Below are positions 45,721 to 49,329 of a stretch of 64,000 nt of DNA, in pieces. Made by a program: the position numbers and the translations under genes. Location of the stretch: contig JBAZRH010000001.1 in the NCBI GenBank assembly GCA_041663045.1, positions 1,817 through 65,816 on the forward strand, given 5' to 3'. This DNA comes from Minisyncoccota bacterium (GTDB lineage Bacteria; Patescibacteriota; Minisyncoccia; Phycocordibacterales; GWA1-40-21). The notes under the pieces were generated by a model. That model did no database searches. It saw only the letters and a program-made list of their open reading frames with translations, and was not told where the DNA came from. Numbering within the stretch: position 1 is the stretch's first letter; every line of letters starts with the position of its first letter.

Positions 45721-46479
45721 ATGCAAAAACCAGAGGAAAATAGAGGACATCTACATCCGATAACCTTAGTATTTAATGATATGGTTAAGATTTTTTCCGA
45801 TATGGGTTTTGTATTAACCGATGGTCCAGAACTTGAAACAGAATATTATAACTTTGATGCCTTGAATTTTCCCAAAGATCATCCAGCTCGCGATATGCAG
45901 GATACTTTTTGGCTTAAACCAAATAAAAATATACCTGGTGTTGAAAACAAGCTTTTGAGACCTCAGACGAGTGCAATGCAGATTCACTATATGGAAGACA
46001 ATAAACCGCCACTTGCTATTATTTGTCCGGGTAAAGTTTATAGAAATGAAGCGACAGATGCGGGTCATGAAGCACAATTTCATCAGATAGAAGGATTACT
46101 GGTAGATAAAAAGATTTCTCTTGCTGATCTCAAGTCAACTCTGAATATCTTTTTTGATAAATTCTTTAAGAAAGATGTTGAGGTGAGATTTCGTCCAAGT
46201 TTTTTCCCTTTTGTTGAACCGGGTGTAGAAATAGACGTCTCTTGTTTCAAATGTAAAGGTGAAGGAAGTTGTCCAGTTTGCAAAGGCACCGGTTGGATAG
46301 AGATAATGGGAGCCGGGGCTGTTCATCCAAAAGTGTTGAATATTATCGGAATAAATCCAAATGAATTTACCGGTTTTGCCTTCGGTATGGGTGTGGATAG
46401 AATAGCGATGCTCAAATACGGCATTGATGATATTAGGTTGCTTTATTCCGGAGATTTGAGATTAGTTAATCAATTTTAA
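45721..46479 (+). CDS. pheS: phenylalanine--tRNA ligase alpha subunit (N-terminally short, 252 aa)
   Basis: Class II motifs: [46 protein letters not shown]. Lacks the usual ~90-aa N-terminal helical arm. Confidence 0.85.
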
Positions 46480-46480
46480 A

Positions 46481-48853
46481 ATGAAAGTATCATATAAATG
46501 GTTAAATGAATTCTTGGGAGGCAAAGCGCTAAAGGTTGGAAAATTTGCAGAGCTTTTGACTATGAATTCGGTGGAGATAGAGAGTATTGAAAAAGCTGGA
46601 GGTGATTTTGTACTTGATGCAAAAACTACGCCAAATTTGAATCATCATTTGCTTTGCCATAGAGGAATCGCTAGAGAAGCCGGCGTTCTTGCCGATATAA
46701 AAGTATCTCAATATTCAAGGGAATTTGCTAACTTGGAAGCCAGGCTTCCAAGTGAGAGAAAGCTTAAGGTAAATATTGTAGACGGGAAATTGTGTAGAAG
46801 ATATACCGGAAGAATTGTGGAAAATGTCAAAGTCGGTCCATCGCCGAAGTGGCTTGCGGAAAAACTTGAAATTCTCGGTCAAAGGTCAATAAATAATATT
46901 GTCGATGCCACAAACTTTCTTATGCTTGAGCTCGGCCAGCCGATGCATGCTTTTGATGCTGATAAATTGGCGAAAAGCGGGGAAGTCATTATATCCGTGC
47001 AAAATGCAAAAAAGGGCGACAAGATAGTCACTTTAGACAAAAAAGATATTGAATTGGACGAAAGTGTTCTTCTTATCACCGATGGTAAAAATCCTCTTGC
47101 TATTGCCGGAGTAAAAGGAGGAACATTTGCAGAGCTTGATGAAAATACGACAAATGTTGTATTGGAATCTGCCAATTTTGCACCAACTCTTATAAGAAAG
47201 ACATCCCAAAAATTTAAAATTCAAACTGACGCCTCAAAGAGATATGAAAATGATTTGACCCCTGAATTATGCGGAGAAGCTATGGATATTCTTACAAAAT
47301 TGATTGTTGAAATTGCCGGCACAAAAGATACAAAAGTCGGCGAAGTCGTGGACAATTATCCGCGACCTGCCGGAAAATACAAGCTCGGAATTTCTGCTGA
47401 AGAAGCAAGTGATATTATCGGTGTAAAAATAAGTGACAAAGAAATCGCAAAGATTTTTGACAGATTTGGATTTGAATATAAAAAAGTGAAGCCGATAGAT
47501 GAGGTGTTGAAGATGGCACCGACTTTTGTGGGAATACCGTACAAATACGGAGCAAGTGTTTCCTATGATGCGCCGAGGACTTTTGATTGTTCAGGGTTCA
47601 TTTGCTACCTTTTCCGAGAAACTGGCGTGGGGATACCAAGGACATCTATAGATCAATATGTTTTCGGTAAGCCGATTTCAGAAAAAGATTTGAGACTGGG
47701 GGATGAAGTATTTTCTAACACAAAAGAGGGCAAAATACATTATGAGACAAAAGAATTTTTGCCAGGTACAAAAGTGCCAGAAGGCGTGGATCATTGCGGT
47801 TTATATCTTGGAGATGGGAAGATAATCCATGCTACAGGCCTATTTGGCAAAGTAGTTATTGAAGATTTGAATAAATCGGATAGATTCAAAAATATTGTCG
47901 GCTATAGAAGAATGGCGGAAAACACAGAGAGATTTGTCATTACTGTGCCGGATGAGAGGTTAGACTTGAGAATCAAAGAAGATCTGGCAGAAGAAATCGG
48001 TAGAATTTATGGATATGACAAAATAAAAGATGTAAAAATATCAAATAATTCTGGGAAGACGATTTCAGATAAAGCGTATTTCTATAAAACAGAAGTCAGA
48101 AAAGTTCTTGTCTCTCTTGGTTTTTCCGAAATCATAAATTATACATTTAGAGAAAAAGGCGAGGTTGAATTGGCGAATACTATGTCTCCGGAAAAAAGAT
48201 TCTTGAGGACCAATCTTTCGGATGGATTAAAAGAAGCTTTAGAATTCAACGCCAGATATTCTGACTTTATCGATATGTCGCAGATAAAGATTTTTGAATT
48301 CGGACATATCTTTACAAAGAAAGGGGAGTTTGACCATTTTGCTATAGGTGCGAAGAATTCTTCTGGAGTGAAAAAGCCAAAAGAAATTGAAACTTTGGAT
48401 ATTGCGATAAAATCTATAGAAGAAAAGACCGGTCTTGTATTGAATAGAGGAAAAGAAGAAGTGGTGATAGAAGTAGATTTTTCTGATGCGATAAGAGATT
48501 TACCAGAAGCAAAAGAATATGATTTTACCGGTATTGAAAGTAAAGATATGAGATTCAGTAAAATATCGCAGTATCCATTTATGGTGCGAGATGTCGCCGT
48601 GTTTACTCCTGAAGGCACAAAACCGAAGGAGGTCTTTGAAATTATAGAAAAATGGGCAGGTATATTGATGGTCAAAAATAAACTCTTTGATGTATTTACC
48701 AAGAAGTTTCCGGACGGCACGAGCAAGATATCCTATGCTTATAGATTAGTATTTCAGTCTTATGAAAGGACACTTACGGATGACGAAGTAAATAAGATAA
48801 TGGAGAAAATCACTTCAGAATTAAATTCTCAAAAAGGCTGGCAGGTGAGATAA
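46481..48853 (+). CDS. pheT: phenylalanine--tRNA ligase beta subunit with inserted NlpC/P60 domain
   Basis: B3/4 (TPNLNHHLLCHRGIAREA..), B5 (DNYPRPAGKYKLGISAEE..FGFEY), core (VPDERLDLRIKEDLAEEIGRIYGYD) and FDX-ACB C-terminus. Residues ~345-470 are an NlpC/P60 domain (DCSGF, HCGLYLGDGKIIHA). Confidence 0.85.
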   Translation: MKVSYKWLNEFLGGKALKVGKFAELLTMNSVEIESIEKAGGDFVLDAKTTPNLNHHLLCHRGIAREAGVLADIKVSQYSREFANLEARLPSERKLKVNIVDGKLCRRYTGRIVENVKVGPSPKWLAEKLEILGQRSINNIVDATNFLMLELGQPMHAFDADKLAKSGEVIISVQNAKKGDKIVTLDKKDIELDESVLLITDGKNPLAIAGVKGGTFAELDENTTNVVLESANFAPTLIRKTSQKFKIQTDASKRYENDLTPELCGEAMDILTKLIVEIAGTKDTKVGEVVDNYPRPAGKYKLGISAEEASDIIGVKISDKEIAKIFDRFGFEYKKVKPIDEVLKMAPTFVGIPYKYGASVSYDAPRTFDCSGFICYLFRETGVGIPRTSIDQYVFGKPISEKDLRLGDEVFSNTKEGKIHYETKEFLPGTKVPEGVDHCGLYLGDGKIIHATGLFGKVVIEDLNKSDRFKNIVGYRRMAENTERFVITVPDERLDLRIKEDLAEEIGRIYGYDKIKDVKISNNSGKTISDKAYFYKTEVRKVLVSLGFSEIINYTFREKGEVELANTMSPEKRFLRTNLSDGLKEALEFNARYSDFIDMSQIKIFEFGHIFTKKGEFDHFAIGAKNSSGVKKPKEIETLDIAIKSIEEKTGLVLNRGKEEVVIEVDFSDAIRDLPEAKEYDFTGIESKDMRFSKISQYPFMVRDVAVFTPEGTKPKEVFEIIEKWAGILMVKNKLFDVFTKKFPDGTSKISYAYRLVFQSYERTLTDDEVNKIMEKITSELNSQKGWQVR

Positions 48854-48946: not shown

Positions 48947-49150
48947 TTAGGTAGGAGACGCGTTCTGATACCACATACGATACAGTATCGTGTTGGCGGT
49001 AAAGGCATCAATGTCGCATCTTTGTGCGAGGTCGGCTAACACTAAACTGTTGACTGCCCATGCACTCTTACCCCCATTTTTCTTGGTTATCATAACCATT
49101 TGATATACACCCTCAATGAACTCGTTCGTCTTATCATCAGTCGCAACCAT
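48947..49150 (-). CDS. hypothetical small protein (67 aa)
   Basis: AAAGGAG RBS 7 nt before the ATG at 49150 (minus). Terminator downstream on the minus strand. GC slightly elevated. The ORF track extends it to a TTG at 49189. Confidence 0.4.
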   Translation of the reverse strand: MVATDDKTNEFIEGVYQMVMITKKNGGKSAWAVNSLVLADLAQRCDIDAFTANTILYRMWYQNASPT

Positions 49151-49329
49151 GATGGACTCCTTTCTTCTGTTGTTTAGTCCAGTGTGCAATACTACTATAT
49201 CAGTGCCTGTGTGTCAACATGACAAAATATCCACATTTTTATGCCTATTTTGTGGTAGTTTTTCCTTTCATTTTTGCTTCAAAATATGCTATAATTGAGA
49301 GGTAAAAAGCCTATAGCTGTTTTAATTTT

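What the first reader, a model, noticed from the sequence alone, without database searches (positions are those of the whole stretch)
47510..47900. NlpC/P60 papain-like domain inserted into PheT between the B5 domain and the catalytic-like core
Between the B5 domain (…IAKIFDRFGFEYKK) and the conserved core entry (FVITVPDERLDLRIKEDLAEEIGRIYGYD), which normally follow each other within ~20 residues, lie ~125 residues. This insert has the hallmarks of NlpC/P60 (C40) hydrolases or acyltransferases: DCSGFICYLF (catalytic Cys370), HCGLYLGDGKIIHA (His438 and His450), GxPR and a G..I..L..GD..F segment. The reading frame is continuous and the surrounding PheT domains are intact, so this is a genuine domain insertion in an essential aminoacyl-tRNA synthetase subunit. 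NlpC/P60 domains are normally extracytoplasmic cell-wall peptidases. The superfamily also contains cytoplasmic thiol acyl-hydrolases and acyltransferases (LRAT-like). An intact triad inside PheRS raises the possibility of an extra ester/amide hydrolysis activity, for example proofreading of mischarged or N-acylated aminoacyl-tRNA alongside the B3/4 editing site. Another possibility is a moonlighting cell-wall role.
Basis: partly seen in the sequence, partly recalled or inferred. Interest (0 to 1): 0.8.

Follow-up and report, generated by a model that had tools for sequence, protein, structure and literature searches.

The report
Cell-wall-type peptidase nested inside PheRS beta
In hundreds of ultra-small Patescibacteria species, the essential enzyme that loads phenylalanine onto tRNA carries an intact cell-wall-type cysteine peptidase domain nested in one of its own domains, and comparative genomics indicates this is a self-contained enzyme module riding on the synthetase, not a new proofreading site.

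Summary
Window 47486-47926 (PheT residues 336-482) is an NlpC/P60 (C40) domain with Cys370, His438 and His450, in an uninterrupted 790-aa PheT. The placement needs correcting: it sits inside B5, in the hairpin between the two halves, not between B5 and the core.

The canonical B3/4 editing residues are intact with or without the insert, and the insert was cleanly lost at least 7 times.

B5 plus NlpC/P60 behaves as an autonomous module:
- It survives as a ~220-aa gene where PheT has disappeared and a mitochondrial-type monomeric PheRS is present.
- It is followed by a small Peptidase_C39_2 gene in 49 of 69 loci, against 0 of 7 insert-less loci.
- It is fused to that peptidase in two protein clusters.

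Best reading: a cytoplasmic amidase working with the C39_2 peptidase, probably on stem-peptide or gamma-glutamyl peptides, with PheRS as carrier. A tRNA-linked role is not excluded. No description was found in the searched literature.

The parts
45721..46479 (+). pheS: short PheRS alpha subunit (252 aa, class II core only, no N-terminal coiled coil)
   Evidence: ORF. Pfam tRNA-synt_2d, 321 bits, covering residues 4-252.
46481..48853 (+). pheT: PheRS beta subunit, 790 aa, uninterrupted. It has B1, B3/4, B5 (split), CLM and FDX-ACB, and lacks the B2 OB-fold domain.
   Evidence: TIGR00472 scores 424.8 bits against a cutoff of 402.65 and aligns query residue 44 to profile position 160.
46793..47320 (+). 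B3/4 editing domain with the canonical editing residues intact (window H156, G214, E229, T249, A251)
   Evidence: Pfam B3_4, 209 bits. Alignment to E. coli 3pco_B. Conservation counts in 120 homologues.
47366..47485 (+). B5 domain, N-terminal half (residues 296-335: beta1, two helices, beta2, ending ...FGFEYKK)
47486..47926 (+). Nested NlpC/P60 (C40) cysteine hydrolase domain, residues 336-482
47588..47590 (+). Codon of catalytic Cys370 (motif FDCSG)
   Evidence: Invariant in 93 of 93 insert-bearing homologues and in all 21 sequences of A1, including stand-alone forms. Aligned to the catalytic Cys of 7cfl and 4xcm.
47717..47791 (+). Lineage-specific extension inside NlpC/P60 (residues 413-437, NTKEGKIHYETKEFLPGTKVPEGVD) between the GD.vF strand and the catalytic His. 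It is about 19 aa longer in the main stand-alone clade and in some embedded forms.
   Evidence: Gap relative to 7cfl and 4xcm. Length variation in A1. Conserved E425, F426, G435, D437.
47792..47794 (+). Codon of catalytic His438 (motif DHCGLY)
   Evidence: Invariant in 93 of 93. Aligned to the catalytic His of 7cfl and 4xcm.
47828..47830 (+). Codon of the third triad residue, His450 (motif IIHA)
   Evidence: His in 85 of 93; Tyr in 5, Gln in 2.
47927..48028 (+). B5 domain, C-terminal half (residues 483-516: beta3 and helix). It contains R484, which co-varies with the insert, and the D495/D501/E504/E505 motif.
   Evidence: Pfam B5 profile positions 34-67. R484 is Arg in 93 of 93 insert-bearing sequences and Q/S in insert-less ones. 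Motif positions. That these residues bind a Mg2+ shared with the alpha subunit is from my own knowledge of UniProt/HAMAP PheT annotation.
48068..48334 (+). Catalytic-like module (B6/B7) of PheT
   Evidence: Pfam tRNA_synthFbeta, residues 530-618.
48566..48850 (+). FDX-ACB (B8) anticodon-binding domain of PheT
   Evidence: Pfam FDX-ACB, residues 696-790, 71.7 bits.

Best explanation
The segment encodes a catalytically competent NlpC/P60 (C40) cysteine hydrolase of the peptidoglycan DL-endopeptidase type. It is nested in the beta2-beta3 hairpin of the B5 domain of PheRS beta.

B5 and NlpC/P60 together form one rigid, self-sufficient module. PheRS beta is its carrier. Aminoacylation and B3/4 editing proceed through their usual, intact sites.

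The module most likely works in the cytoplasm as an amidase or peptidase together with a small, dedicated Peptidase_C39_2 cysteine peptidase. The likeliest substrates are peptidoglycan stem peptides or other gamma-glutamyl or isopeptide-linked small peptides, broken down in two steps for salvage in these auxotrophic bacteria.

Shown: domain identity, intact and conserved active site, nesting point, wide distribution, autonomy of the module, and linkage to C39_2. Inferred: cytoplasmic location, joint action with C39_2, and substrate class.

For: 2. Selection for catalysis. Cys370, His438, D369, S371, G382, R387, D391 and D408 are invariant in 93 of 93 homologues that fall to 47% overall identity. 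His450 is present in 85 of 93. In distant pairs the insert is more conserved than the rest of PheT (0.55 against 0.44 identity).

3. Independence from PheRS chemistry. Editing residues are intact with or without the insert. The insert was lost 7-14 times (median 11; root insert-bearing in 40 of 40 bootstraps), each time leaving a tight hairpin.

4. Autonomy. Free-standing proteins of ~200-233 aa reproduce B5 N-half, NlpC/P60 and B5 C-half with the triad intact. They sit where pheT used to be, next to a 381-382-aa PheS+FDX-ACB protein, or away from pheS. Free forms arose about 12 times on the module tree. One of them (P0121) is closest to the window's own PheT, at 73% identity.

5. Partner. A Peptidase_C39_2 gene of 163-222 aa with no signal peptide lies downstream on the same strand in 49 of 69 insert-bearing loci, and directly adjacent in 37. 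The figure is 0 of 7 for insert-less loci (Fisher p = 4e-4). It also follows the free module in L003 and L004. In two 50%-identity clusters (P0248, P0256) it is fused to the module, with both active sites kept.

6. The C39_2 model (pLDDT 96.1) resembles double-glycine C39 peptidase domains, the gamma-Glu-Cys peptidase Alr0975 and the pseudomurein endoisopeptidase PeiR.

7. The fusion gene lies beside FtsW, MurG, a Peptidase_S11 gene and MraY.
Against: - There is no biochemical evidence. The substrate class rests on fold similarity and context only.
- The window has no C39_2 gene in its 64 kb, and 20 of 69 insert-bearing loci lack one within about 5 kb.
- The explanation does not say why the domain entered PheT, nor why both B5 halves are kept in every free-standing form. 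That retention could mean B5 contributes something specific, such as RNA or PheRS binding.
- In three contexts the free module is still coupled to the PheRS gene (4-nt overlap in L001 and L005, 25-nt gap in L003). That would also fit a PheRS-related function.
- pheST often lie near cell-wall genes in these genomes anyway (L094), so the L095 context is weak.
- A cytoplasmic muropeptide-recycling pathway was not shown for these organisms.
Confidence: 0.5

Rival explanations
1. tRNA-linked chemistry. The NlpC/P60 thiol acts on the ester or amide of (mis)acylated, N-acylated or peptidyl-tRNAPhe as an additional proofreading or rescue site. Alternatively it takes Phe from Phe-tRNA or Phe-AMP as a thioester and passes it to an acceptor. 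The B5 winged-helix-like halves would provide tRNA or PheRS docking.
For: - The domain is physically embedded in PheRS in the great majority of cases: 97 full-length PheT forms among the classified representatives and all 80 fetched loci.
- Where PheT is lost and the editing-less mitochondrial-type PheRS takes over, the module is the one piece of PheT kept, and it remains coupled to the PheRS gene.
- Both B5 halves are always retained.
- Papain-like enzymes work through acyl-thioester intermediates (general enzymology, from my own knowledge).
Against: - The canonical editing site is fully intact in insert-bearing PheTs.
- The insert has been lost repeatedly with no visible substitute nearby.
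- The module occurs unlinked from pheS (L004, L095).
- It is tightly linked and even fused to a C39_2 peptidase, which has no known tRNA role.
- Its closest structural relatives are all peptidoglycan endopeptidases.
- In free forms the conserved B5 acidic motif that contacts the alpha subunit is degraded, e.g. P0130 KPELRSKENIIKIL.
Confidence: 0.15
2. The tether itself matters. The hydrolase acts on peptides, but its attachment to PheRS is functional, for example to set its dosage or activity according to the translation apparatus, or to release Phe or other amino acids next to the synthetase.
For: - The nested form has been retained across deep divergence within Paceibacteria.
- Junction residues co-vary with the insert (R484; positions 295, 298, 300), which suggests a fixed docking geometry.
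- The module model has pTM 0.88.
- Free modules are still translationally coupled to the monomeric PheRS gene.
Against: - Repeated clean loss and repeated release into a free gene show that the tether is dispensable.
- Free or C39-fused forms exist far from pheS.
- Nothing measured here bears on regulation.
Confidence: 0.15
3. A non-catalytic structural or binding domain: an exapted, dead NlpC/P60 fold, like RipD-type binding proteins, used for protein or ligand binding.
For: NCBIfam gives a weak hit to the inactive RipD family (32.8-38.5 bits). His450 is replaced by Tyr or Gln in 7 of 93 sequences.
Against: Cys370 and His438 and the surrounding catalytic motifs are invariant in 93 of 93 embedded forms and in all free and fused forms. 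The RipD hit is far below its cutoff of 215 and weaker than the hits to active enzymes.
Confidence: 0.05
4. Assembly or annotation artefact (a chimeric contig or frameshift), or a recently inserted mobile element of the intein type.
For: None beyond the unusual architecture and the patchy presence and absence among relatives.
Against: - The frame is continuous.
- The same architecture appears in 93 independent database proteins and 80 loci from different studies, including a complete genome, CP011215.1.
- Insert divergence tracks flank divergence (r = 0.62).
- There is no GC anomaly and there are no meaningful flanking repeats.
- Pfam finds no Hint or homing-endonuclease domain.
Confidence: 0.01

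Closest known systems
Peptidoglycan DL-endopeptidases of the NlpC/P60 (C40) family: C. difficile Acd24020 (7cfl), B. subtilis CwlO and LytE, E. coli MepS, M. tuberculosis RipB
   Different: Those enzymes are secreted or lipid-anchored and carry LysM, SH3b or coiled-coil targeting domains. This one has no signal peptide and is nested in a cytoplasmic aminoacyl-tRNA synthetase domain. It has a 13-30-aa extra extension before the catalytic His. Its activity is untested.
YkfC-type cytoplasmic gamma-D-Glu-L-diamino-acid endopeptidases of murein-peptide recycling (structural relative 3h41, B. cereus BCE_2878)
   Different: YkfC uses two SH3b domains and sits in a ykfABCD-type operon. Here the auxiliary domain is a split PheRS B5, and the conserved neighbour is a C39_2 peptidase. 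Orthology was not shown (27% identity).
Canonical bacterial PheRS beta subunit (T. thermophilus 1pys/1b70, E. coli 3pco, S. haemolyticus 2rhs)
   Same: B1, B3/4 with editing residues, B5 with its acidic motif, CLM and FDX-ACB are all present. TIGR00472 is above its cutoff. The gene follows pheS.
   Different: A 147-residue enzyme domain replaces the ~5-residue B5 hairpin turn. B2 is absent and PheS lacks its N-terminal coiled coil. B2 loss was already noted for CPR in PMC5370408.
E. coli glutathionylspermidine synthetase/amidase (Gss): a CHAP papain-like amidase fused to a ligase
   Different: In Gss the amidase reverses the ligase's own reaction and is attached at the N-terminus. Here the hydrolase is nested, belongs to the P60 branch rather than CHAP, and shows no evident chemical link to Phe-tRNA synthesis.
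Editing domains and trans-editing factors of aminoacyl-tRNA synthetases (PheRS B3/4 and free B3/4-like proteins, YbaK, AlaX, DTD)
   Same: An additional hydrolytic domain carried by a synthetase. Free-standing versions exist, as for trans-editing factors.
   Different: No sequence or fold relationship to any known editing domain. The resident editing site is intact. The partner is a peptidase, not a tRNA-binding protein.

Membership tests
NlpC/P60 (MEROPS C40, Pfam PF00877) | Profile match above the curated threshold | tested here: met
   63.0 bits in the whole PheT and 68.0 bits for the excised insert, against a gathering score of 23.
NlpC/P60 (MEROPS C40, Pfam PF00877) | Catalytic Cys at the start of a helix, His on a beta strand, and a third polar residue (His, Asn, Gln, Glu or Asp), in that order (non-permuted) | tested here: met
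   C370, H438 and H450 align to the catalytic residues of 7cfl and 4xcm. Cys and His are invariant in 93 of 93; the third His is present in 85 of 93.
NlpC/P60 (MEROPS C40, Pfam PF00877) | Papain-like alpha+beta fold | tested here: met
NlpC/P60 (MEROPS C40, Pfam PF00877) | Hydrolysis of gamma-D-Glu-diamino-acid (or related) amide bonds | not testable with these tools
   Requires an enzyme assay with the purified module.
Secreted cell-wall hydrolases (typical NlpC/P60 context) | Signal peptide or lipobox and a wall-targeting domain (LysM, SH3b, CW-binding) | tested here: not met
   The domain is internal to cytoplasmic PheT. Free forms start directly with the B5 strand (M..Y+VGLS) and have no hydrophobic leader. 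Pfam finds no targeting domain.
Bacterial PheRS beta subunit (TIGR00472 pheT_bact) | Equivalog profile above cutoff, with B3/4, B5, CLM and FDX-ACB domains, next to pheS | tested here: met
   424.8 bits against a cutoff of 402.65. Pfam domains. pheS ends 1 nt before pheT.
Bacterial PheRS beta subunit (TIGR00472 pheT_bact) | Intact B3/4 post-transfer editing residues (E. coli H265, G318, E334, T354, A356) | tested here: met
   All are identical in the window and conserved in insert-bearing and insert-less homologues alike.
Bacterial PheRS beta subunit (TIGR00472 pheT_bact) | N-terminal B2 (tRNA_bind, OB fold) domain | tested here: not met
   No PF01588 hit. The TIGR00472 alignment starts at profile position 160. 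B2 is known to be missing in many CPR PheRS beta subunits (PMC5370408).
LRAT / PLAAT acyltransferases (NlpC/P60 superfamily) | LRAT profile match, or closest structural similarity to H-box/NCEHF-type enzymes | tested here: not met
CHAP amidases | CHAP profile match, or closest structural similarity | tested here: not met
Known aminoacyl-tRNA editing or deacylase families | Sequence or fold relationship to B3/4, YbaK/INS, AlaX, DTD or Pth | tested here: not met
   No such Pfam, NCBIfam or PDB hits for the insert.
Inteins / mobile in-frame insertions | Hint splicing domain, homing endonuclease, or a distribution independent of host phylogeny | tested here: not met
   No Hint or endonuclease domains. 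Insert divergence tracks flank divergence, r = 0.62. No GC shift.

The most novel reading that the evidence does not exclude
The B5-NlpC/P60 module, with its C39_2 partner, is a new kind of tRNA-linked thiol enzyme. It would either be a Cys-dependent hydrolase of mis- or N-acylated Phe-tRNAPhe that can stand in for editing, which would explain why it alone survives beside the editing-less mitochondrial-type PheRS. Or it would be an aminoacyl-transferase that takes Phe from Phe-tRNA as a thioester and passes it to a peptide or cell-wall acceptor.
Probability: 0.12. Interest if true: 0.9.

Novelty: new variant of a known kind. Interest (0 to 1): 0.7.

Why it matters
Aminoacyl-tRNA synthetases are known to pick up accessory domains. 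An intact peptidoglycan-type cysteine peptidase nested inside a core PheRS domain, conserved across hundreds of Patescibacteria species, was not described in any paper of the searched library.

The comparative pattern turns a curiosity into a testable system. There is a defined ~220-residue module, a defined partner enzyme (C39_2), natural free and fused versions, and natural deletion variants of PheT to use as controls.

If the module degrades stem peptides or gamma-glutamyl peptides in the cytoplasm, it points to a salvage route in organisms that cannot make their own amino acids and live off host bacteria. If instead it acts on tRNA-bound substrates, it would be a new class of translational quality-control or transfer enzyme.

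The survey also showed that some Parcubacteria use a mitochondrial-type monomeric PheRS. That bears on how the heterotetrameric enzyme can be replaced, and on the ancestry of the mitochondrial enzyme.

Tried and rejected
- **Degenerate editing site replaced by the insert.** Rejected: all five mapped editing residues are conserved with and without the insert.
- **Chimeric assembly.** Rejected by the survey.
- **Mobile or intein-like element.** No splicing or endonuclease domain, no flanking repeats beyond chance-level 10-mers, no GC shift.
- **C39_2 or a second NlpC/P60 gene elsewhere in the window.** None found with profile HMMs.
- **Sequence search of C39_2 against the PDB.** Nothing significant. 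Only the fold search was informative, and it was not diagnostic of substrate.
- **Literature.** Five searches (NlpC + PheRS + insertion; PheRS + CPR; PheRS + monomeric + Patescibacteria; NlpC + aaRS + Parcubacteria; monomeric PheRS + bacteria) found no description of the fusion or of a bacterial mitochondrial-type PheRS. One paper notes B2 loss in CPR PheRS beta. One earlier search attempt failed on term syntax.
- **AFDB fold search.** Unavailable.
- **Insert-only homology search.** It returned only 12 free-standing proteins and none of the PheT-embedded ones, apparently a quirk of the word index. The exhaustive representative search was used for counts instead.
- **The 80-aa minus-strand ORF between pheT and gyrB (48947-49189).** It has no homologue in the other loci and is probably not a gene.
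- **Not possible here.** I could not test whether genomes with an insert-less PheT carry the module elsewhere, because only about 10 kb of flank is accessible. I also could not place the domain in the alpha2beta2-tRNA complex, because model coordinates are not returned.
Full report
**Observation**

The window encodes pheS (45721-46479) and, 1 nt later, an uninterrupted 790-aa pheT (46481-48853). Pfam finds B3_4 (residues 105-280), NLPC_P60 (from residue 351; 63 bits in context and 68 bits for the excised segment, cutoff 23), B5, the catalytic-like module and FDX-ACB. NCBIfam's pheT equivalog is above its cutoff (424.8 against 402.65), and several NlpC/P60 models hit residues ~336-476.

Against solved PheT structures, the query jumps from residue 333 to 483 while S. 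haemolyticus PheT moves from 444 to 449. The excised segment aligns to the C. difficile autolysin domain 7cfl and the T. thermophilus endopeptidase 4xcm, with Cys370, His438 and His450 on the catalytic residues.

Pfam's best B5 stretch is residues 479-512 matching profile positions 34-67 of 67. The sequence after the insert is thus the second half of B5, not the entry to the core. The domain is nested inside B5, in the turn of a hairpin. Insert-less relatives define the insert as residues 336-482, nt 47486-47926. Nothing in base composition or repeats marks it as recent or mobile.

**Distribution**

A search with the whole protein returned 120 best hits. Of these, 93 have the insert (about 145 aa) and 27 have only 1-5 residues at the site. 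Every source name is a Patescibacteria lineage: Paceibacterota, Minisyncoccia, Taylorbacteria, Yonathbacteria. NCBI calls them 'phenylalanine--tRNA ligase beta subunit-related protein', and once 'C40 family peptidase'.

A pattern scan of one genome per GTDB species found 458 confirmed matches to the module. The 80 best loci all show a short PheS followed by a ~780-830-aa PheT with the nested domain. They include the complete Campbellbacteria genome CP011215.1. An exhaustive HMMER search of 1.84 billion cluster representatives found 205 clusters at E <= 1e-30. This is not an assembly artefact.

**Selection on the insert**

Across the 93 insert-bearing proteins, which fall to 47% overall identity, Cys370, His438 and six other motif residues are invariant. 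His450 is kept in 85. Insert and flank identities are correlated (r = 0.62). The insert is somewhat less conserved than the flanks between close relatives and more conserved between distant ones. That pattern is expected of a vertically inherited domain with a constrained catalytic core.

**Relation to PheRS function**

The five editing-site residues mapped in E. coli PheT align to identical residues in the window. They are conserved equally in insert-bearing and insert-less proteins. The insert is therefore not compensating for a lost editing site.

The only positions outside the insert that co-vary with it are at the junction: R484, and 295, 298 and 300 at the start of B5. This looks like a docking surface.

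On a tree built from the flanks alone, insert-less proteins are scattered among insert-bearing ones. P0085, for example, is 87% identical to insert-bearing P0010. Parsimony gives an insert-bearing root and 11 changes. Over 40 bootstrap replicates the range is 7-14 with the same root every time. Each loss leaves a tight hairpin such as FEWKKE-GDKFVI. PheRS evidently works without the domain.

**The module is autonomous**

A search with the insert alone returned twelve proteins of 199-233 aa. They are not bare NlpC/P60 domains. They reproduce B5 N-half, NlpC/P60 and B5 C-half, with no leader peptide and with the triad intact.

- In Parcubacteria bacterium C7867-005 and a second lineage, the gene sits in the same synteny as the window (glycosyltransferase ... 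pheS - X - gyrB). There pheS is a 382-aa protein with the class II core plus FDX-ACB, and the module gene overlaps its stop by 4 nt. That PheS is far closer to human mitochondrial PheRS (205 bits) than to any bacterial PheS (at most 126 bits). It is a mitochondrial-type monomeric enzyme, which has no editing domain.
- A third case (P0121) has the same arrangement, and its module is most similar to the window's own PheT (73%).
- A fourth (P0125) is not next to pheS at all.

On a module tree, free forms arise about 12 times from embedded ancestors. Some of these may be gene fragments, but three are verified by context. When PheT is dismantled, the B5-NlpC/P60 module is what survives. The AF2 model of window residues 296-516 is confident as a single unit (pLDDT 93.2, pTM 0.88).

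**A dedicated partner**

In L003 and L004 the free module is followed by a small Peptidase_C39_2 gene. The same gene lies downstream of insert-bearing pheT, on the same strand, in 49 of 69 loci with enough sequence. In 37 it is directly adjacent, with gaps of -37 to +354 nt.

None of seven insert-less pheT loci, sampled from separate loss lineages, has it. None has a free module within the fetched flanks either. Fisher p = 4e-4.

Two representatives, P0248 and P0256, are single polypeptides joining the module to the C39_2 domain, and both active sites are preserved.

The C39_2 family (163-222 aa, no leader, invariant Gln, Cys and His) is again Paceibacterota/Minisyncoccia by source name.

Adjacency, retention after relocation, co-loss and fusion together make a strong comparative case that the two cysteine hydrolases act together. 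The window itself has no C39_2 gene in its 64 kb, like 20 of the 69 loci. Whether one lies elsewhere on its 429-kb contig could not be checked.

**What the chemistry is likely to be**

The partner's model (pLDDT 96.1) resembles double-glycine C39 peptidase domains, the gamma-Glu-Cys peptidase Alr0975 and the pseudomurein endoisopeptidase PeiR.

The module-C39_2 fusion gene lies beside FtsW, MurG, a DD-carboxypeptidase and MraY. In one insert-less locus the slot after pheT holds a Peptidase_M15 gene. These contexts are suggestive only, because pheST often lie near cell-wall genes in these genomes.

Cytoplasmic NlpC/P60 enzymes that degrade free stem peptides (YkfC) are an established precedent (from my own knowledge).

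I therefore favour a cytoplasmic two-enzyme peptide-salvage activity carried by PheRS beta (confidence about 0.5). Domain identity, autonomy and partnership are shown. Substrate and location are inferred.

**Rivals**

A tRNA-linked role is not excluded (about 0.15). The module is nearly always in or next to PheRS. It is the one part of PheT kept beside the editing-less monomeric enzyme, and it always retains both B5 halves. Against this stand the intact editing site, the repeated loss, the unlinked copies, the peptidase partner and the decay of the B5 acidic motif in free forms.

A functional tether, meaning regulation or local amino-acid supply, is possible (about 0.15). A dead structural domain is unlikely (0.05). 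An artefact is excluded.

**Novelty**

Five literature searches found no description of this architecture or of a bacterial mitochondrial-type PheRS. One paper mentions only that B2 is missing from many CPR PheRS beta subunits.

The parts are known families. The nested arrangement, its autonomy and its partner are new. I rate it a new variant of a known kind, interest 0.7.

Noticed in passing
L001 6856-8004; L005 4856-6004; L003 435-1580: Some Parcubacteria encode a 381-382-aa PheS core + FDX-ACB protein that is much closer to human mitochondrial PheRS (205 bits, E 1e-59) than to any bacterial PheS (at most 126 bits). It is a mitochondrial-type monomeric PheRS in bacteria, replacing the alpha2beta2 enzyme. 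The L001 and L003 versions are 47% identical. No paper describing this was found.
   Followed up: partly
e.g. L013 7491-7994, L011 7505-8059, L003 2350-2886, L004 6593-7159; fusions P0248 and P0256 (L095 8001-9194): A small cytoplasmic Peptidase_C39_2 protein family (163-222 aa; invariant Gln, Cys and His) confined by source name to Paceibacterota/Minisyncoccia. It is genetically linked to the B5-NlpC/P60 module and is fused to it in two clusters.
   Followed up: yes
window 45721-46479 and 46481-46790: The window's PheRS is reduced. PheS is only 252 aa with no N-terminal coiled coil, and PheT lacks the B2 OB-fold tRNA-binding domain. Both elements contact tRNA in canonical PheRS.
   Followed up: partly
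L089 11936-12595: In one insert-less lineage the slot between pheT and gyrB holds a 219-aa Peptidase_M15 gene (VanX / LD-carboxypeptidase-type peptidoglycan peptidase), 7 nt after pheT.
   Followed up: no
window 47717-47791; alignment A1 columns ~132-150: The extension inside the NlpC/P60 domain before the catalytic His comes in a short form (window) and a form about 19 aa longer (..IIHTEGSYFSKVLGREVKEEAIRTE..). The long form is found in the main free-standing clade and also in some PheT-embedded proteins (e.g. P0029).
   Followed up: partly
P0133 (1183 aa): A protein with nine tandem NlpC/P60 domains topped the representative search through summed repeat scores. It is unrelated to PheT.
   Followed up: no
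P0186, P0188, P0195, P0198, P0199 (478-543 aa): Several database proteins start within or just before B5 and run module + CLM + FDX-ACB without B1 or B3/4. They may be contig-end or gene-call fragments, or genuine PheT forms that lack the editing domain. This was not resolved.
   Followed up: no
window 48947-49189 (-): An 80-aa TTG-start ORF between pheT and gyrB, in a local GC bump. It has no homologue in any of the fetched loci and is probably not a gene.
   Followed up: yes
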